A DNA stretch of 23,837 nt, taken from positions 1-23,837 of IMG/VR virus record IMGVR_UViG_2534681835_000037; one strand, written 5' to 3'. Position 1 is the stretch's first letter; each line of letters begins with the position of its first letter. The notes beneath the pieces were generated by a model. It searched no databases. It had not been told where the DNA came from and saw nothing but the letters and a program-made list of their open reading frames with translations. Origin of the DNA: a virus. Its lineage: Duplodnaviria; Heunggongvirae; Uroviricota; Caudoviricetes. Position numbers and translations under genes: made by a program. Positions 8,504-16,813 of this stretch are shown here, piece by piece.

Positions 8504-9193
8504 ATGAGTTTGATTGATTTAAGAGATGAATACGAAGAAAGAGCAAGAGATATTATGGAATTGCTTTCTCTTGCGTCATCTTTAGAGGCTCAGACTCAGC
8601 AGTTAGATCAGCAAACGCATAAAGATGAAATAGAATCAAATACCCTTAGGGTTAACATTTTAAAATCATCCGTGCACATGATGCTGTACAATCAGGTTGA
8701 AAACACTGCCAGAGGATGCATTGAGTCAATTTATGACCATTTGCAAGATAATGAAGTAAATTACGCATCACTCAGGGAGAAATTCCAAGTAAATATCTTG
8801 CACCGTATCATTTCAGATAATGAATCGGGAAAATCTCTTTATCAAAAAATTGGTTCCGATATATCTAAAAGGATCATTTCAGCCTCATTAAACATACGTA
8901 AAGAATTCAATGGTAATGTTTGCAAGTCTGTATTGCACAAAATAACACAAGCTTACGGAATAACTGTTGCAAACTCACCAGAGTGTAGAAATGGTGTTGA
9001 CTTAGATTTACTTAAAGATATCAGAAATGAGCTGGCACATGGAAGTACCAGCTTTTCTAAAAAAGGTCAAATAGACCCTTTAGAAGAAGTCAAATCGAGG
9101 TCAGAAAGAATTGATCTATATTTGCGTTTATTAATCAACTCAACAGAAAATTATATTACCTCTAACGGGTATTTATCCCCTCAACATGTCTGA
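8504..9193 (+). CDS. HEPN-like domain protein (putative RNase), translationally linked to the DUF262 gene
   Basis: 229 aa; start 2 nt after the DUF262 stop; C-terminal R-x4-H motif (DIRNELAHG) typical of HEPN active sites in a largely helical protein. Assignment is from motif and context only. Confidence 0.55.
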   Translation: MSLIDLRDEYEERARDIMELLSLASSLEAQTQQLDQQTHKDEIESNTLRVNILKSSVHMMLYNQVENTARGCIESIYDHLQDNEVNYASLREKFQVNILHRIISDNESGKSLYQKIGSDISKRIISASLNIRKEFNGNVCKSVLHKITQAYGITVANSPECRNGVDLDLLKDIRNELAHGSTSFSKKGQIDPLEEVKSRSERIDLYLRLLINSTENYITSNGYLSPQHV

Positions 9194-12279: not shown

Positions 12280-13163
12280 GCAGCCACACCTCCAATATGC
12301 GCACGATAGCTGGGCCAGTTAAACGACAACCAGTTGCGTCCCCCGTCTGTGATCCTGTCGGCAATGCGGGGGCTGATGAACGCCCACAACTCTTCCGGTG
12401 AAAGGTTGCTGATCAGGATGGTGGGCAGGATGCTTTCGTACCGGGCATTGATAATTTCCTGCAAAATAGCCATTTCAGCCGCGCTACCAAACTGGACACC
12501 CACTTCGTCGATAATCAGCAGATCCAGTGATGCATAATGCTCAATCACCTCATCCGCAGTTTTTTCGCTGTCATTCCGCCAGCAGTTTTTCACAGCCCGG
12601 GTCAGGCGCATCACGTCGGTGATCTCAACACTGGCGAGATAGTTGCGGATGACATATTTTGCCATCGCAACCGCCAGGTGATTTTTACCGGTGCCACAAC
12701 TGCCAGTCAGCACGAGATTTGTGCCATTCTCCAGAACATCCGCCCAGTTTTCGGCATAGCGACGACAGGCAGCAAGATTTCTGGCTGCGTCAGGATTAAT
12801 CTCCTGATAGTTTTCAAACTCACAGTCACGAAAACGCAGTGCAATTCCGGCGTTATCAGTCAGTTCTTCCGCCTTCAGGGACGACAACTCCATAATCACA
12901 TCGTTGATTTCAGCACTCAGGCAGTGAGGACAGTGTGAAATTTTCTCTCTGTCCTCGCCATTACGATCCCCCCACACCAGAATATGCGTGTGATATTCGC
13001 CATGTTTTTCGCAATATCCGCGACCTTCACGCATCCGGCAGGAACGATAAGGCCACGGTTTTTCCCCAGTCTCCGCAAACGCCATCTCAGACCGTAACTC
13101 ATCCATCCGCGCCTGTAGTCTTGTTTGTTGTTCACGCAGGTTAAACGTCATCATCGCTGTCAC
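12276..13163 (-). CDS. DnaC-like helicase loader (IstB-like AAA+ ATPase)
   Basis: 295 aa; Walker A GSCGTGKNHLAVAMA, Walker B LLIIDEVG; N-terminal Cys/His-rich segment. Confidence 0.85.
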   Translation of the reverse strand: MTAMMTFNLREQQTRLQARMDELRSEMAFAETGEKPWPYRSCRMREGRGYCEKHGEYHTHILVWGDRNGEDREKISHCPHCLSAEINDVIMELSSLKAEELTDNAGIALRFRDCEFENYQEINPDAARNLAACRRYAENWADVLENGTNLVLTGSCGTGKNHLAVAMAKYVIRNYLASVEITDVMRLTRAVKNCWRNDSEKTADEVIEHYASLDLLIIDEVGVQFGSAAEMAILQEIINARYESILPTILISNLSPEELWAFISPRIADRITDGGRNWLSFNWPSYRAHIGGVAA

Positions 13164-13164
13164 C

Positions 13165-14157
13165 TCAGAATGTTAAGTTGTCACTGGATTTACCGAATTC
13201 GTCAGACATGGCACCAAGACCAGACAGGATATCTATCTGTCGCTGTCGCCCACCTCCGGGAGCGGCTGGCTGTTGCCAGAAATCTTCGAAGTGACGATCG
13301 GGTCCAAAAAACGTCGCGGTCTGCTTCACGAATTGTGTGCCGGTATTTCCTGTGGCACGTACCCAGGCGGCATAACGCCTCACGCCATCAAGCATGGTTT
13401 CGGGTGTCACACCTTCCCTGATTCGGGCTTTCCAGGCTTTGAAGGCTGCCGACTTGGAATTACCACCAGCACGTTTGGGGTATTCCTGCCAGGCCTGTTC
13501 AAATTCCGGTGAATATTCTTGTCGGGCAGAACGCGCTGGTGCAGACGCGTCAGCGGATGCGCCAATAGTGTTTTTAGTCTCCGTTGTAATCTCTGTAGTA
13601 ATCTCTGTATTTGTATCAACATTCGGCGTATCCCCTGTTCCGTTATGACGTTGGGTGGTGTTCCGTTTTAACGTAATAGCTGTGTCGCTGACTGTGTTAT
13701 TGCTGTTGCTTTCTGACGAAACAGAAGAAGGTGTGGTGATGGCAGCAACTGCCTGTGGGTTGATCCCGACAAACAAAATATTGCTGCATTTCACACCATC
13801 GAGCATTTCCACCGTACGTAAATCCAGAGTAATAAACCCGGCATCGCGAAGACGCTTCAGCGCATCTGCGGTTTCCCTTTTCCCAAAACCAAACTGCTCA
13901 GCAAACGCCTGATAGCTTCTTTGCAGCTTGTCACCCTGAAAACGCTTGCGATATCCCAGTAAAGCCCCGGTATGCTCATCCCGGACTTCTGTCGGGCGGT
14001 ACCAATAAACGATCTCTGAGAGCAGGGCGATAGCGGTCGCATCCGGACGACCACTGGGTAGCCGAATATGTTTCCACCAGTTCGCTGGTGTGACATTGCC
14101 GGAAATATTAATTTGACCAATAGCTATAACTTCCGGTGTGGGGGCGTAACGACTCAT
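13165..14157 (-). CDS. Replication initiation protein (O-like replisome organiser)
   Basis: 330 aa; first gene of the replication module; conserved-looking C-terminal region (EQAWQEYPKRAGGNSKSAAFKAWKARIREG); contains internal tandem DNA repeats (iteron-like) in its middle. Confidence 0.6.
   Translation of the reverse strand: MSRYAPTPEVIAIGQINISGNVTPANWWKHIRLPSGRPDATAIALLSEIVYWYRPTEVRDEHTGALLGYRKRFQGDKLQRSYQAFAEQFGFGKRETADALKRLRDAGFITLDLRTVEMLDGVKCSNILFVGINPQAVAAITTPSSVSSESNSNNTVSDTAITLKRNTTQRHNGTGDTPNVDTNTEITTEITTETKNTIGASADASAPARSARQEYSPEFEQAWQEYPKRAGGNSKSAAFKAWKARIREGVTPETMLDGVRRYAAWVRATGNTGTQFVKQTATFFGPDRHFEDFWQQPAAPGGGRQRQIDILSGLGAMSDEFGKSSDNLTF
13584..13617. repeat. Iteron-like tandem repeats inside the O-like gene (candidate replication origin)
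   Basis: GTAATCTCTGTA at 13586-13597 and 13598-13609 with degenerate flanking copies; encodes TEITTEITTE in the middle of the initiator, analogous to ori-lambda lying within O. Confidence 0.45.
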
Positions 14158-14453
14158 ACAGCCTCCTTACGCGGCATAACAATGGTGTAACCCCGGGCAG
14201 GCTGGAACCGGGCTTTTGCATCAATAGTGAGCGTTGCAATTTTTCGGATATGAAGATAACCAGCTCTTTCCAGTGCCAGGGTTTCCCTGAATATCGCTTG
14301 CTTAGAACAACAGCAGAAATCAGCAAGCACCCGATGATCAATAACTCTCTCGCCTTCACCGTCTGAAGAACCCGACATCAAAACACGCAACATAATCAGG
14401 CGCTGAATCGGGTTATCGAAAGCACATCCGCACACAAACTGAAAACAGTTCAC
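14154..14453 (-). CDS. Hypothetical protein (possible winged-helix DNA-binding)
   Basis: 99 aa; 4-bp overlaps with both neighbours, part of a translationally coupled chain. Confidence 0.45.
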   Translation of the reverse strand: MNCFQFVCGCAFDNPIQRLIMLRVLMSGSSDGEGERVIDHRVLADFCCCSKQAIFRETLALERAGYLHIRKIATLTIDAKARFQPARGYTIVMPRKEAV

Positions 14454-14674
14454 GCCACACCTCCCAGACGCTTAAACATTTTTCCAGACAGAAATACCGC
14501 CAGAGGGTAACTGATGGTGTAGCTACGCCCCTGTAGTTCGCACACGACTTTCTGGCTTTCAGCGTTGACTAGGCAAACCCGCAGAACGTGACCGTTGCTG
14601 GTGGCGAACCACTGCCCCACACGGGGGCAACGGTTGTATCGGTGATACAGGGAATTAACGATGTGGCGGATCAT
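14450..14674 (-). CDS. Hypothetical protein
   Basis: 74 aa; coupled by 4-bp overlaps to neighbours. Confidence 0.4.
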   Translation of the reverse strand: MIRHIVNSLYHRYNRCPRVGQWFATSNGHVLRVCLVNAESQKVVCELQGRSYTISYPLAVFLSGKMFKRLGGVA

Positions 14675-14865
14675 GGACGCACCTCCGCCGTAGTTACGTA
14701 TTTAACCGGGCTACCTTTCATTGAGATGGTTTCACACATCTCTGCCGCTTTCAGTTCCGCTGTTTTTCTGGATTTATAGCGACGGTGCCAGACAGATACA
14801 TCCGTGCGAACTGATACATCGTTTCTGTATTCCGTAGTGGAGATGATGATTTCGTAACTAATCAT
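14671..14865 (-). CDS. Hypothetical protein
   Basis: 64 aa; coupled by 4-bp overlaps to neighbours. Confidence 0.4.
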   Translation of the reverse strand: MISYEIIISTTEYRNDVSVRTDVSVWHRRYKSRKTAELKAAEMCETISMKGSPVKYVTTAEVRP

Positions 14866-15413
14866 GGGCGAACCTCCTTGTCAGAACCATTCAGCCTGGA
14901 ATCAACAAGTGCAGCGCCAAAAACAGCATCACCAACACGGTCGTACAGTTTGCTAGCCAGCGGAGATTCAACGGCCTTAAGCATTGGATAAAGCTGGCTT
15001 GTCCAGATTTGATGGATTTCACGCAAATGCAGGTATACGCCTCTGGCGTTTCGTGCGACAGCTGACATATCAACCGCGTCAGCACCAGATAAATTCTTCT
15101 CCATCTGGTTAAAGGCGTTGATGTATGCCTCTTTGAACCGGGCTGCACGTTTGCCAGTAAAGCCCATAGCAAGGAACGCGAAGCCATCGCGGGTGATTTG
15201 ATAGCAAGGTAGTTTGCGGCCTGTGCAATCGGTGTAATCACTGGGCTGAAAATTCAGCTCAGTGAATTCAACAGAGCACTCAAGCGTCTGGATTTTTTGA
15301 ATAACGTTTTTGTGCTGCTTGCAGAAATATTCGGCAACGGCCAAAGAAGAGGTAACAGCCTTCCCATGGATAACATCAATTTTAGGGTGAGTTTGGGTAG
15401 GGGTGGTTGCCAT
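14862..15413 (-). CDS. Phage regulatory protein, Rha family
   Basis: Rha-like N-terminal motif (KIDVIHGKAVTSSLAVAEYFCKQHKNVIQKIQTLE) begins right after the internal ATG at 15413, which has a GAGGA RBS. The ORF track extends the frame to 15710 (282 aa), but that extension has no family resemblance. Confidence 0.6.
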   Translation of the reverse strand: MATTPTQTHPKIDVIHGKAVTSSLAVAEYFCKQHKNVIQKIQTLECSVEFTELNFQPSDYTDCTGRKLPCYQITRDGFAFLAMGFTGKRAARFKEAYINAFNQMEKNLSGADAVDMSAVARNARGVYLHLREIHQIWTSQLYPMLKAVESPLASKLYDRVGDAVFGAALVDSRLNGSDKEVRP

Positions 15414-15795
15414 AGTGACATCCTCATGTGCGAATTTTGAAAACTCACCACATGGGACGCCAATCACAGAGGTGGTGAGACGTACAGGGTTGGCGTAACC
15501 GGTCGCACATGACCCCGGCGCATCTTTCGATGCCCCTGCACGCCCCACCATAATTTGGATGTGAGGAAACGTGCGCAAAAAAACCGCTGAAGCGCGGTTA
15601 TGCGCATGTGCGAATTTCAGGACGCCAATCCCGGCACCCGCTTTATAAGGTGCGGAGACAGTGTAACGTCCCGAAATTGCAGAATCAATATTTGGTCTTG
15701 AAATGATCATATAGCTGCTGATATCTTTAGAACTGTTCTTGGATGTTTCGGAGCCGTTTTATGCGAAACAGCTCCCCGTTATTGATGTTGAGTGA

Positions 15796-15819
15796 GCCGG
15801 GTTACTCCCGGCTTTTTTT
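15796..15819 (+). terminator. Intrinsic terminator on the plus strand, antisense to the early-right operon
   Basis: gccggg-ttact-cccggc hairpin (15796-15812) followed by TTTTTTT (15813-15819). On the minus strand it is preceded, not followed, by the run. Confidence 0.55.
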
Positions 15820-16526
15820 CATCGCTGCCAACCAATAACCTGAAATAACCCCATTTTCGGGTGATACCAGCGAGTCCCTCGCGGTTCTGCTTCCTCCATA
15901 ACCCGATAAAAAGCAGCCATAAACGGTTCCACAGCAACAATTGCGCGACGTGACAACAATCCGTCCGGCGTCATGAACTCATGTGTGTCTGTAGGAATTT
16001 GATAGGCGTTCACCAGATTGCGGCATTTATCATCTGACAAACCGGTTTTTGCTTTCAGTTGGCGATATCCGGCATAGCCCTCACGAATAGTGCCCTTTTT
16101 AATTTGCTCGACTGTTTCAGCAACGTGGCTGACTTTTTCTTCCACCTGAGTGATCCGTTTCTGTTGGCGAACGGCTTCAAGAGCCATCGCGGCAACCATT
16201 TCGATTTCGCTCATTGGCTTACGGATCTGTTCTTCCAGTTCGCGCCAGCGATCTACCAGGCGAGCTGTGAATTCAGGACAGAGCTGTGCGACGACAATGA
16301 TGCTGTCGCGCTTACCTCGTTCACCTTCGAATACATACGCGCTAGAAAATCGGCGAGGCCCAAGTGATTGTTTATTCTCAATTTCCACAGTCTGTGGAAA
16401 TTGGATGATTCCCTTTTTAGCCAGTGTTTCAATAGTTCTCTTAACACTATCTGGTCGGCTTCCCACCAGCTCTGCGATCTCAACGCTGGTCATGGATGCT
16501 TTGCCGTTAAAAATTGCGGTGTTCAT
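15819..16526 (-). CDS. Rha/ORF6N-type antirepressor-family regulatory protein
   Basis: 235 aa; N-terminal motif (FNGKASMTSVEIAELVGSRPDSVKRTIETLAKKGII) typical of phage Rha/antirepressor N-domains; start overlaps the Cro-like stop (ATGA). Confidence 0.5.
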   Translation of the reverse strand: MNTAIFNGKASMTSVEIAELVGSRPDSVKRTIETLAKKGIIQFPQTVEIENKQSLGPRRFSSAYVFEGERGKRDSIIVVAQLCPEFTARLVDRWRELEEQIRKPMSEIEMVAAMALEAVRQQKRITQVEEKVSHVAETVEQIKKGTIREGYAGYRQLKAKTGLSDDKCRNLVNAYQIPTDTHEFMTPDGLLSRRAIVAVEPFMAAFYRVMEEAEPRGTRWYHPKMGLFQVIGWQR

Positions 16527-16813
16527 TGTTTATCTCCTGCGTGTATTCCATCCGCTCTGTGTGGTGAACTTGGATTTAGGCTTTTGCGTAACAAGTTAGG
16601 AATTCCATCTTCAGGGTGAGGATAAAGATCTGGCCTTAAGCCATGAGGCGTAACCTTCCATGCAACTACTTCACATACTCGTAAAACGAAACGAGCAGGA
16701 ATTGTGCTTTTTGAAAACCACTGATTCACCGCTTGCGGCGTCACACCAAGATTTCGCGCTATGGCATTTTGCGCAATTAATGCACGAAGTTTGTCGTAAT
16801 CATTTCCTTCCAT
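16523..16813 (-). CDS. Cro-like HTH regulator, first gene of the early-right operon
   Basis: 96 aa; HTH segment (IARNLGVTPQAVNQWFSK); divergent from the CI-like repressor across a 130-bp AT-rich operator region. Confidence 0.55.
   Translation of the reverse strand: MEGNDYDKLRALIAQNAIARNLGVTPQAVNQWFSKSTIPARFVLRVCEVVAWKVTPHGLRPDLYPHPEDGIPNLLRKSLNPSSPHRADGIHAGDKQ

What the first reader, a model, noticed from the sequence alone, without database searches (positions are those of the whole stretch)
15414..15819. Plus-strand intrinsic terminator antisense to the early-right operon, next to a 300-bp stretch that may be non-coding (oop-like arrangement)
A GC hairpin plus T7 at 15796-15819 is oriented to terminate a plus-strand transcript, yet every gene here is on the minus strand. 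The terminator sits exactly at the 3' end of the 235-aa Rha-like gene. The downstream Rha-family gene has its recognisable domain and a strong RBS at 15413, leaving 15414-15710 as an ORF-track extension without family features. This resembles lambda oop RNA, an antisense RNA ending at a terminator at the cII/O junction.
Basis: partly seen in the sequence, partly recalled or inferred. Interest (0 to 1): 0.5.

Follow-up and report, generated by a model that had tools for sequence, protein, structure and literature searches.

The report
Phage RNA immunity switch, plus reverse terminator
The stretch thought to be empty holds a well-known phage RNA switch (IsrK/c4) that keeps an antirepressor gene silent, on the same strand as the genes, while the reverse-facing terminator beside it is real and conserved but has not been shown to end any RNA.

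Summary
The sequence observations hold. A canonical plus-strand intrinsic terminator lies at 15794-15819. It is one of only two strict terminators in the 23.8-kb window, and its T-run ends on the stop codon of the 235-aa Roi/Rha-like gene.

The interpretation of 15414-15710 is wrong. This stretch is not an empty spacer read by an antisense RNA. On the minus (gene) strand it holds two Rfam families above threshold: isrK (15653-15577) and C4 antisense RNA (15555-15468). Repeated targets a1/b1 and a2/b2 go with them, and b2 abuts the antirepressor Shine-Dalgarno. This is the P1/P7 immI, P4 CI/seqA, Gifsy-1 IsrK-AnrP type of immunity module.

Across 44 distinct leaders the 282-aa frame has no stop codon and only 3-nt indels, as in the P4 eta/kil nested-gene arrangement.

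A short plus-strand RNA (about 15733-15819) remains possible, at roughly 45%. A TTGAAA-18-TGnTATCTT promoter-like site and the terminator are kept in three diverged sequence types. Expression is untested, and the evidence for which strand the central hairpin serves is mixed.

Overall this is a new member of a known kind and of modest interest.

The parts
15794..15819 (+). Intrinsic terminator: stem GAGCCGGG/CCCGGCTT, loop TTACT, T7. The last T is part of the complement of the roi stop codon.
   Evidence: one of two strict terminators in the window, against 0.01 expected; stem and T6-8 are kept in 21-27 distinct versions while the loop varies. There is one T-A to C-G double change, and one C to U change that pairs only on the plus strand.
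15698..15727 (+). Promoter-like site TTGAAA - 18 nt - TG-a-TATCTT (extended -10). It would start a transcript at about 15733.
   Evidence: The -35 and TGnTAT(C/T)TT are kept in sequence types A, B and C although the spacer and flanks diverge. Activity not shown.
15733..15819 (+). Candidate RNA of about 87 nt: conserved 5' GUUCUUGGAU, a central hairpin, then the terminator. It is complementary to the roi-ash intergenic part of the early-right transcript.
   Evidence: z = -3.1. The central hairpin is replaced by different hairpins in types B and C. Unverified, and the minus strand folds at least as well (z = -5.55).
15660..15688 (-). P_isrK promoter, by eye: -35 TTGATT (15688..15683), 17 nt, -10 TACACT (15665..15660). 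The start would be at about 15653.
   Evidence: Read from the sequence. It scores 8 of 12, below the scan threshold. It is invariant in all 53 aligned leaders (44 unique). The Rfam isrK model starts at 15653. It is the analogue of the Gifsy-1 isrK promoter (PMC4825925).
15577..15653 (-). isrK / P4 seqA-like RNA. It holds c4 targets a1 (15630..15620) and b1 (15617..15605) and its own intrinsic terminator (15599..15577).
   Evidence: RF01394, 62.3 bits (gathering score 50); c4-a1b1 RF03163 below threshold; minus-strand terminator; compensatory A-U to C-G change in its first hairpin in PhiR49_2.
15468..15555 (-). c4 / P4 CI-type antisense RNA. Loops b' (CAUGUGCGA, 15511..15503) and a' (ACGCCAA, within 15498..15489). 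The conserved AUG at 15551..15549 is in frame with ant.
   Evidence: RF01695, 75.1 bits (gathering score 45), full length; a'/b' co-vary with their targets.
15421..15465 (-). Targets a2 (15465..15455) and b2 (15437..15425). b2 runs into the SD GAGGA (15425..15421) of the short antirepressor start.
   Evidence: cognate complementarity of 7 nt (a) and 9 nt (b), against 3.4 and 3.9 for non-cognate pairs.
14862..15710 (-). 282-aa Ash + Rha ('Bro network', P4 Eta-like) ORF. Its ATG at 15710 lies upstream of the internal promoter P_isrK. In-frame internal starts lie at 15551 (orf45/Kil-like) and 15413 (short Rha antirepressor).
   Evidence: Pfam; no stops in 44 leaders, against 14 and 11 variable-site stops in the other two frames, and all indels are 3 nt. 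(P4 comparison). PMC10111431.
15819..16526 (-). 235-aa Roi/Rha-like DNA-binding gene, the upstream neighbour in the early-right operon.
   Evidence: Phage_pRha 25.6 bits, below cut-off, plus HTH hits. Annotated 'Roi' in PhiR49_2 and 'Rha family transcriptional regulator' in RefSeq.

Best explanation
Two different things lie in the flagged interval.

(1) The P4/P1-type RNA immunity module, 15414-15710, minus strand.
- It controls a Rha-type antirepressor.
- A constitutive promoter (TTGATT-17-TACACT, start about 15653) makes a short IsrK/seqA-like RNA. That RNA ends at its own terminator (15599-15577).
- Read-through transcripts give the c4/CI RNA (15555-15468).
- The two c4 loops pair with the repeats a2/b2 just ahead of the antirepressor. 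b2 abuts the SD GAGGA, so translation from ATG 15413 is blocked.
- The same loops also pair with a1/b1 inside IsrK. Free IsrK can therefore act as a decoy or activator, as shown for Gifsy-1.
- The whole module sits inside a conserved 282-aa reading frame whose ATG (15710) is upstream of the internal promoter. By analogy with P4 eta/kil, only transcripts coming from PR through cro and roi can translate the long frame. Ribosomes crossing the IsrK terminator and the c4 targets would make those transcripts insensitive to the immunity RNA.

(2) The plus-strand terminator, 15794-15819.
- It is a genuine, conserved plus-strand intrinsic terminator in the 108-nt roi-ash spacer.
- It most likely ends a transcript of about 87 nt from the divergent promoter-like site at 15698-15727.
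- That RNA would be complementary to the spacer of the early-right mRNA, and the terminator would keep plus-strand transcription out of roi, cro and cI.

Shown: family membership, target complementarity and co-variation, frame conservation, existence and conservation of the terminator.
Inferred: promoter activities, the override by translation, and the existence and role of the plus-strand RNA.
For: Family matches:
- Rfam gathering-level hits for C4 (75.1 bits) and isrK (62.3 bits) on the minus strand.
- The same pair of hits, in the same order, in phage P4 at its CI RNA and seqA.

Pairing and co-variation:
- a1/a'/a2 and b1/b'/b2 co-vary through 6 a' and 9 b' types in 15 combinations among 44 distinct leaders. 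Cognate pairing is 7 and 9 nt, against about 3.4 and 3.9 for non-cognate pairs.
- b2 is adjacent to the SD and the ATG at 15413.

Reading frame:
- The ant frame has 0 stops. The other two frames have 14 and 11 distinct variable-site stops. All three indels are 3 nt.
- Pfam Phage_ASH matches both this stretch and the P4 ORF that contains the CI RNA.

Literature:
- The IsrK - orf45/STnc1160 - AnrP mechanism, and the IsrK-seqA homology (PMC4825925).
- The P4 eta/kil summary (PMC10111431).

Plus-strand terminator:
- Strict census of 2 observed against 0.01 expected.
- Stem and T-run are conserved in 92 IMG/VR loci and in 211 of 5426 E. coli genomes.
- The promoter-like elements and the 5' GTTCTTGGAT are kept in three diverged types.
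- phiP27 has an unrelated plus-strand terminator after its Roi-like gene, with a similar TTGATT-18-TGaTATTGT site read by eye.
Against: - No expression data of any kind were available.
- The ATG at 15710 has no recognisable SD.
- Frame conservation could be maintained in related phages, where the long ORF is coupled to an upstream gene, and be carried here by recombination.

For the plus-strand RNA:
- The promoter is a 9-of-12 match with an 18-nt spacer. The region scan found no excess of promoter-like sites (7 against 7.9 expected).
- Conservation of TTGAAA may partly reflect codons 3-5 of the long ORF, or upstream elements of P_isrK.
- In this window's sequence type the central hairpin is better on the minus strand: a continuous 10-bp stem, z = -5.55 against -3.1.
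- Two type-A variants keep pairing only on the minus strand, while type-B and L172 variants keep it only on the plus strand.
- No trans target stands out in the window.
- Distant Roi homologues lack any such terminator.
Confidence: 0.8

Rival explanations
1. 15414-15710 is non-coding spacer, and a lambda oop-like antisense RNA runs on the plus strand across it (or from within 15414-15790) and ends at 15819.
For: The plus-strand terminator is real. A strong SD and ATG at 15413 could make the upstream part of the ORF dispensable.
Against: - The stretch holds two sense-strand Rfam families with co-varying targets, and its frame is conserved.
- The only plus-strand promoter-like site between 13000 and 15819 is at 15698-15727. 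A plus-strand RNA would therefore not cover 15414-15697.
- Overlap with the upstream gene is 1 nt, unlike oop, which overlaps the 3' end of cII (own knowledge of lambda).
- No Rfam family reaches threshold on the plus strand.
Confidence: 0.05
2. The plus-strand terminator is an insulator with no dedicated RNA product. It stops stray or pervasive antisense transcription from the AT-rich, constitutively active P_isrK region. Such transcription would otherwise run antisense through roi and cro and sense into cI.
For: - The terminator sits at the boundary between the immI-like module and the cro/cI switch, with cI on the plus strand further right.
- The T-run is conserved.
- No target was found for a trans-acting RNA.
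- phiP27 has a terminator in the same place and orientation with a different neighbour.
Against: - The promoter-like hexamers with extended -10 and the 5' block GTTCTTGGAT are conserved across three diverged types. That would not be expected for mere noise suppression.
- Any terminated transcript is still an RNA, so this rival differs from the best explanation mainly in whether the RNA has a function.
Confidence: 0.25
3. The hairpins of the roi-ash spacer work in the minus-strand early-right mRNA. They could act as a 3' stabiliser or processing site for the roi message, or as a structure tuning initiation at ATG 15710. On this reading the T-run on the other strand is incidental.
For: - The minus strand of 15733-15819 folds with z = -5.55.
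- In type A the central hairpin is a continuous 10-bp stem with a U.G pair only on the minus strand.
- Two type-A variants (L001/L010, L016) keep pairing only on the minus strand.
Against: - The run of 6-8 T (A on the minus strand) lies outside any coding sequence, is invariant, and is what makes the hairpin a canonical plus-strand terminator.
- The 3' flank on the minus strand is not U-rich, so it cannot terminate minus-strand transcription.
- Type-B variants and L172 keep pairing only on the plus strand.
- Types B and C fold 7 kcal/mol better on the plus strand.
Confidence: 0.15
4. The 'Ash' part of the 282-aa ORF is a spurious open frame over conserved RNA genes. Only the short Rha protein from ATG 15413 (and perhaps a product from AUG 15551) is ever made.
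For: - P_isrK starts transcription downstream of ATG 15710.
- There is no SD before 15710.
- Pfam Phage_ASH also matches the old P4 'cI protein' ORF, whose nucleotides encode the CI RNA. From my own knowledge of the P4 literature, that immunity factor is an RNA.
- NCBIfam has no Ash model hit.
Against: - There are zero stops and only 3-nt indels across 44 leaders, despite heavy turnover of the a/b segments. Stops are frequent in the other two frames.
- In P4 the equivalent long frame (eta) and its nested kil are reported to be translated and to control termination (Forti 1999 as summarised in PMC10111431).
- orf45 inside the c4 homologue is translated in Gifsy-1 (PMC4825925).
- In cdtI, Stx2a_1447, Ayreon and SfV the long ORF overlaps the upstream gene by 4 nt.
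Confidence: 0.3

Closest known systems
Phage-plasmid P4 immunity region (PLE - seqA - CI RNA - seqC inside the nested genes eta/kil)
   Same: - Same order of Rfam isrK (seqA) and C4 (CI) hits, with similar scores.
- The same Pfam Phage_ASH frame runs over the RNA.
- The ORF start lies upstream of the internal constitutive promoter, with an in-frame internal start at the conserved AUG at the 5' end of the RNA.
   Different: - Here the frame continues into a Rha-type antirepressor domain, not P4 eta and the downstream epsilon/alpha genes.
- The long ORF is not coupled to an upstream gene. It is preceded by a 108-nt spacer carrying a reverse terminator.
- The host element is a lambdoid prophage at mlrA, not a satellite.
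Salmonella Gifsy-1 isrK - orf45/STnc1160 - anrP locus (PMC4825925)
   Same: - An IsrK RNA with its own terminator, and read-through into a c4-like RNA (STnc1160).
- A conserved AUG opens a short frame, followed by an antirepressor.
- IsrK carries sequences complementary to the downstream RNA.
   Different: - In Gifsy-1, orf45 is a separate 45-codon ORF coupled to anrP. Here the equivalent frame has 46 codons and runs into ant without a stop.
- The Gifsy-1 upstream neighbour is antQ, not a Roi-like gene.
- DNA identity is only about 71% over 200 nt.
P1/P7 immI (c4 - icd - ant1/ant2)
   Same: - c4 RNA with two loops a'/b' that pair with repeated targets upstream and downstream.
- The downstream target covers a ribosome-binding site.
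- Specificity types differ between phages.
- Two in-frame antirepressor starts.
(P1/P7 details are from my own knowledge of that literature; the co-variation here is.)
   Different: - There is no separate icd gene here.
- The antirepressor is Rha-type.
- The module lies inside the early-right operon of a lambdoid prophage, upstream of the replication genes.
Lambda oop RNA
   Same: A short plus-strand (antisense) unit in the early-right operon. A promoter-like site sits in front of the downstream gene and an intrinsic terminator sits at the end of the upstream gene.
   Different: - The overlap with the upstream gene is a single base of its stop codon, not about 50 nt of coding sequence.
- There is no sequence or Rfam similarity.
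- Expression is unproven.
- The neighbours are roi and ash-rha, not cII and O.

Membership tests
Rfam RF01695 C4 antisense RNA (P1/P7 c4, P4 CI) | Full-length covariance-model match at or above the gathering score | tested here: met
   15555..15468, minus strand, 75.1 bits (gathering 45), model positions 1-87 of 87, E = 2.8e-13.
Rfam RF01695 C4 antisense RNA (P1/P7 c4, P4 CI) | Two loop sequences complementary to target repeats both upstream and downstream, co-varying with them | tested here: met
   In this window b' is CAUGUGCGA, and b1 = b2 contain UCGCACAUG (9 nt). a' is ACGCCAA, and a1 = a2 contain UUGGCGU (7 nt). There are 15 co-varying combinations in 44 leaders.
Rfam RF01695 C4 antisense RNA (P1/P7 c4, P4 CI) | The downstream target overlaps the ribosome-binding site of the controlled gene, which is an antirepressor or its leader ORF | tested here: met
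   b2 (15437..15425) runs into GAGGA (15425..15421), 7 nt before ATG 15413; the gene has a Phage_pRha domain (E = 2.4e-32).
Rfam RF01695 C4 antisense RNA (P1/P7 c4, P4 CI) | The mature RNA is released from a longer transcript by processing (RNase P), and it represses in vivo | not testable with these tools
   Needs Northern blot or 5'/3' end mapping, and genetics.
Rfam RF01394 isrK (P4 seqA homologue) | Full-length model match at or above the gathering score, ending in an intrinsic terminator | tested here: met
   15653..15577, 62.3 bits (gathering 50); minus-strand terminator AACCGCG-CTTCA-GCGGTT plus T7.
Rfam RF01394 isrK (P4 seqA homologue) | Its own promoter directly upstream | tested here: inconclusive
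   TTGATT-17-TACACT is placed correctly and is invariant in all aligned leaders. It scores 8 of 12, was missed by the scan, and its activity is untested.
P4 eta/kil-type nested gene over an immunity RNA | A long ORF that starts upstream of the internal constitutive promoter and runs through seqA, CI and seqC in one frame, with an in-frame internal start | tested here: met
   ATG 15710 lies upstream of the -35 at 15688. AUG 15551 and ATG 15413 are in frame; the frame is conserved; the same frame relation holds in P4.
P4 eta/kil-type nested gene over an immunity RNA | Translation of the long frame from an upstream promoter prevents termination and makes expression immunity-insensitive | not testable with these tools
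   Known for P4 only through the summary in PMC10111431. The primary paper, PMC94026, is not held.
P4 eta/kil-type nested gene over an immunity RNA | Translational coupling of the long ORF to the upstream gene | tested here: not met
   Here 108 nt separate the roi stop from ATG 15710, and no SD is present. Relatives cdtI, Stx2a_1447, Ayreon and SfV do show a 4-nt overlap.
Lambda oop-type antisense RNA | A short RNA ended by an intrinsic terminator, on the strand opposite to the early-right operon | tested here: inconclusive
   The terminator criterion is met. The promoter is only a consensus match that is conserved in relatives. No transcript data exist.
Lambda oop-type antisense RNA | Substantial overlap with the 3' coding end of the upstream gene (cII in lambda), giving an RNase III substrate | tested here: not met
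   The T-run ends at 15819, so only 1 nt of the stop codon is overlapped.
Pfam PF10554 Phage_ASH | Score above the curated cut-off | tested here: met
   53.8 bits (cut-off 26), residues 16-110; 42.8 bits for the 99-aa extension alone.
Pfam PF10554 Phage_ASH | The matched frame is a translated protein domain, not a translation of an RNA gene | tested here: inconclusive
   The frame is conserved. However, the family's P4 member is the ORF over the CI RNA, and no structure or proteomic evidence was examined.

The most novel reading that the evidence does not exclude
The roi-ash spacer encodes a previously undescribed plus-strand small RNA of about 87 nt.
- It would be transcribed back-to-back with the IsrK promoter and end at the terminator that abuts the roi stop codon.
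- It is present in about 4% of complete E. coli genomes.
- It would pair with the early-right mRNA just upstream of the start of the long Ash-Rha frame.
- It would thereby close the one route to antirepressor expression that the c4 RNA cannot control, namely transcripts arriving from PR.
- A functional analogue would sit after the Roi-like gene of phage phiP27, antisense to the ribosome-binding site of the next gene.
Probability: 0.3. Interest if true: 0.55.

Novelty: new member of a known kind. Interest (0 to 1): 0.3.

Why it matters
**Immunity layer.** The window is a lambdoid prophage at mlrA in E. coli O55:H7 RM12579 (100% identity over the 431-nt query). Similar modules sit in many Stx-converting phages. 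Recognising that its Rha antirepressor is gated by a c4/IsrK RNA switch, with exchangeable specificity loops, identifies a second immunity layer beside CI/Cro. That layer could influence prophage induction and cross-talk between co-resident prophages.

**Annotation.** Genome annotation calls this stretch "ash family protein" or an N-terminally extended Rha protein and omits the RNA genes. The Pfam Ash family sits on nucleotides that encode RNAs.

**The reverse terminator.** If the plus-strand RNA exists, it would be one more regulator at this switch. If it does not, the finding is an ordinary member of a described system.

Tried and rejected
- **Rfam, permissive thresholds, plus strand.** Only terminator-driven sub-threshold matches appeared: sroD 24.5 bits (gathering 50), PrrF, SorX and SorY. 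Rejected as family members.
- **Trans targets.** I looked for targets of the conserved 5' block of the candidate RNA inside the window. A pattern search gave 9 matches against 8.95 expected. The best non-self duplex was -21 kcal/mol, within the shuffled range (mean -17.6, minimum -23.2). No target can be proposed.
- **Strand test by wobble pairs.** Two events favour each strand. Inconclusive.
- **Generality among Roi-like genes.**
  - Close relatives mostly carry this same element, and a few abut the next gene.
  - Thirteen distant homologues in other genera have none. It is therefore not a general property of the gene family.
  - More copies of the phiP27 junction were invariant and uninformative.
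- **Literature.**
  - No paper holds the hairpin sequence.
  - The Pas sRNAs of EPEC/EHEC lie in late regions.
  - The Salmonella prophage transcriptome paper mentions IsrK and STnc1160 but nothing divergent from them.
  - The primary P4 eta/kil paper could not be read.
- **Read-through of the roi stop into the long ORF.** The two are in the same frame, but an in-frame UAA follows after 19 codons (sequence). Rejected.
- **A nut/put-like antitermination RNA on the minus strand.** No boxA-like sequence and no Rfam hit. Not pursued.
Full report
**Where the window comes from**

The interval 15400-15830 is 100% identical to the chromosome of E. coli O55:H7 RM12579. There it lies in a lambdoid prophage next to mlrA. 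From cro (16813..16523) leftwards, every annotated gene is on the minus strand: the 235-aa Roi/Rha-like gene, the 282-aa ORF, two small ORFs, and the O-like, DnaC-like and helicase genes. The CI-like repressor (16941-17636) is on the plus strand.

**Checking the observation**

The plus-strand hairpin and T-run are there. The stem is GAGCCGGG/CCCGGCTT (15794-15814), the loop is TTACT, and the T7 run is 15813-15819.

The loose scan of 13000-18500 found no real excess of terminator-like sites (10 against 6.2 ± 2.2). I therefore applied strict rules to the whole window: a perfect stem of at least 7 bp, at least 5 GC pairs, and at least 6 T in the 8-nt tail.
- Only two sites pass: this one, and the terminator just after cI (17648-17672).
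- One hundred dinucleotide-preserving shuffles gave a mean of 0.01.

The last T (15819) is the first base of the complement of the roi TGA. On the minus strand the hairpin is followed by CUCACUCAAC, so it cannot be a canonical minus-strand or bidirectional terminator.

A good SD (GAGGA) and an ATG at 15413 sit in front of the Rha domain, which spans residues 120-205 of the 282-aa ORF (E = 2.4e-32).

**What 15414-15710 really is**

Rfam gives two hits above their gathering scores, both on the minus strand:
- C4 antisense RNA at 15555..15468 (75.1 bits, gathering 45, full length).
- isrK at 15653..15577 (62.3 bits, gathering 50). It ends in its own intrinsic terminator, which the scan also found.
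- The 'a1, b1 targets of C4' model matches 15666..15614 below threshold.

Read directly from the sequence:
- GAUUGGCGUCC and AAAUUCGCACAUG each occur twice: a1/b1 inside isrK and a2/b2 after c4.
- The c4 loops contain ACGCCAA and CAUGUGCGA, which are complementary to them.
- b2 runs straight into the SD of ATG 15413.
- A promoter TTGATT-17-TACACT (15688..15660) is placed to start transcription at 15653, where the isrK model begins. It scores 8 of 12, so the scan missed it, but it is invariant in every aligned relative.

The same pair of Rfam hits, in the same order, falls on the seqA and CI RNA region of phage P4.

The published Gifsy-1 locus has the same layout (PMC4825925):
- It consists of the isrK promoter, IsrK, read-through into orf45/STnc1160, and then the antirepressor AnrP.
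- IsrK is described there as a structural homologue of P4 seqA.
- STnc1160 is described as the likely CI equivalent.

**Evidence that the RNA system is under selection**

I collected 92 IMG/VR loci through the terminator pattern and added the annotated relatives. This gave 44 distinct leaders between P_isrK and ant.
- The a and b segments fall into 6 a' and 9 b' types, in 15 combinations.
- In every combination the loop and both of its targets change together.
- Cognate complementarity is about 7 nt (a) and 9 nt (b). Non-cognate pairs give 3.4 and 3.9 nt.
- PhiR49_2 also shows an A-U to C-G compensatory change in the first IsrK hairpin.

This is the behaviour expected of c4-type immunity specificities.

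**Is the stretch non-coding?**

That test goes against "non-coding".
- In the 44 leaders the frame of ant has no stop codon.
- The other two frames have 14 and 11 distinct stops at variable sites.
- All three indels are exactly 3 nt.
- The extension also scores on Pfam Phage_ASH.

That family needs care. In P4 it matches the old 'cI protein' ORF, which contains the CI RNA. It does not match epsilon, which is PF25738.

The arrangement fits what is reported for P4 eta/kil (Forti et al. 1999, as summarised in PMC10111431):
- A long 'Bro network' ORF starts upstream of the internal constitutive promoter.
- A truncated in-frame form starts inside it.
- Full-length translation is possible only on transcripts from an upstream promoter.
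- That translation prevents termination.

The corresponding features here are:
- ATG 15710 lies 20 nt upstream of the P_isrK -35.
- The AUG at 15551 is conserved in all 44 leaders as AUUAUGGUGGG. It is part of the Rfam C4 consensus, and it is in frame, 46 codons before ATG 15413. It corresponds to Gifsy-1 orf45.
- The IsrK terminator lies inside the frame.

I therefore read the 282-aa ORF as Eta-like, and the stretch as carrying RNA genes and a reading frame at once.

Caveats:
- ATG 15710 has no SD.
- In cdtI, Stx2a_1447, Ayreon and SfV the long ORF is about 100 codons longer and overlaps the upstream gene by 4 nt.
- The frame may therefore be kept open by selection acting mainly in those contexts.

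**The plus-strand terminator and a possible plus-strand RNA**

The only plus-strand promoter-like site between 13000 and the terminator is TTGAAA (15698) - 18 nt - TATCTT (15727), preceded by TG. It would give an RNA of about 87 nt (about 15733-15819). The site lies back-to-back with P_isrK.

The spacer exists in three diverged sequence types (A is this window; B and C are, for example, L008 and L012). Together these give 21-27 distinct versions. The following are kept in all of them:
- the -35;
- TGnTAT(C/T)TT;
- a block GTTCTTGGAT at the predicted 5' end;
- GTTGAG(Y)GAGCCGGG-loop-CCCGGC;
- 6-8 T.

The sequence between these elements is replaced, but it still forms a hairpin.

The element is found in 211 of 5426 complete E. 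coli genomes, mostly at 99% identity or more.

phiP27 carries an unrelated plus-strand terminator directly after its Roi-like gene. By eye, a TTGATT-18-TGaTATTGT site lies 35 nt upstream of it, antisense to the SD and start of the next gene.

Against a plus-strand RNA:
- The promoter is a modest consensus match, and part of its conservation could come from the long ORF or from upstream elements of P_isrK.
- The minus strand of the same 87 nt folds better (z = -5.55 against -3.1).
- Wobble-pair evidence is split. Two type-A variants pair only on the minus strand. The type-B GAGGU variants and the L172 stem variant pair only on the plus strand.
- I found no trans target in the window.
- No paper contains the sequence.
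- No Rfam family matches.
- More distant Roi homologues in Yersinia, Providencia, Proteus and others have no such terminator.

I put the chance that a discrete plus-strand RNA is made at about 45%. I put the chance that it is a functional regulator at about 30%.

**Comparison with oop**

The geometry is loosely similar: an antisense unit in the early-right operon, with its terminator at the end of the upstream gene.

The differences matter:
- The candidate RNA would overlap the upstream gene by one base, not by tens of coding nucleotides.
- It would not touch 15414-15697.
- It has no sequence relationship to oop.

**Verdict**

The main content of the interval is a new member of a known kind. 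It is a P4/P1/Gifsy-1-type c4-IsrK immunity module inside an Ash-Rha antirepressor gene of a lambdoid E. coli prophage. It differs from its relatives in two ways: the long frame is uncoupled from the upstream gene, and it is preceded by a spacer with a conserved reverse terminator.

Interest is modest. The open item worth an experiment is whether the reverse terminator ends a real small RNA.

Noticed in passing
window 15414-15710 (minus); L105 (phage P4) 8168-8584 and 7888-8175: Pfam PF10554 'Phage_ASH' matches the P4 ORF historically called 'cI protein', which contains the CI RNA (Rfam C4 at 8507..8420). P4 epsilon matches PF25738 instead. One paper (PMC8628076) used PF10554 as its epsilon profile. 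RefSeq labels many such stretches 'ash family protein' without annotating the RNA genes.
   Followed up: partly
window 15420-15640 and the 44 aligned leaders (L001-L102): The c4 specificity segments are shuffled combinatorially among E. coli prophages: 6 a' types and 9 b' types in 15 combinations. This suggests many distinct RNA immunity groups that recombine independently at a and b.
   Followed up: partly
window 15577-15599 (minus): The IsrK intrinsic terminator lies inside the early-right operon, between cro/roi and the replication genes. Lytic transcription from PR must read through it. I saw no N/nut-like element in the stretch I examined (15200-16000). Translation of the long frame is one possible way through.
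   Followed up: no
L003 (phiP27) 1436-1530: An unrelated plus-strand terminator (GGCCGG-ttttctctg-CCGGCC TTTCTTATTT) directly follows the Roi-like gene L14. A TTGATT-18-TGaTATTGT site lies 35 nt upstream. An RNA from it would be antisense to the SD and GTG start of gene L15.
   Followed up: partly
L107, L108, L110, L111 (cdtI, Stx2a_1447, Ayreon, SfV): In these phages the ORF that contains the isrK/c4 region is about 100 codons longer at its 5' end. It overlaps the upstream gene (annotated 'CII' in Stx2a_1447, hypothetical or unknown in the others) by 4 nt, as P4 eta is reported to be coupled to its upstream gene. They have no spacer and no reverse terminator.
   Followed up: partly
window 17648-17672 (plus): This is the only other strict intrinsic terminator in the window. 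It lies 12 nt after the stop of the CI-like repressor gene.
   Followed up: no
window 15819-15710 (minus): The Roi-like gene and the 282-aa ORF are in the same reading frame (108 nt apart). An in-frame UAA 19 codons after the roi stop rules out simple read-through.
   Followed up: yes
window about 6712-6961 (from L007 3313-3562): RefSeq annotates three tRNA genes (Arg, Arg, Ile) on the minus strand in the late-regulatory region of this prophage. I did not examine them.
   Followed up: no
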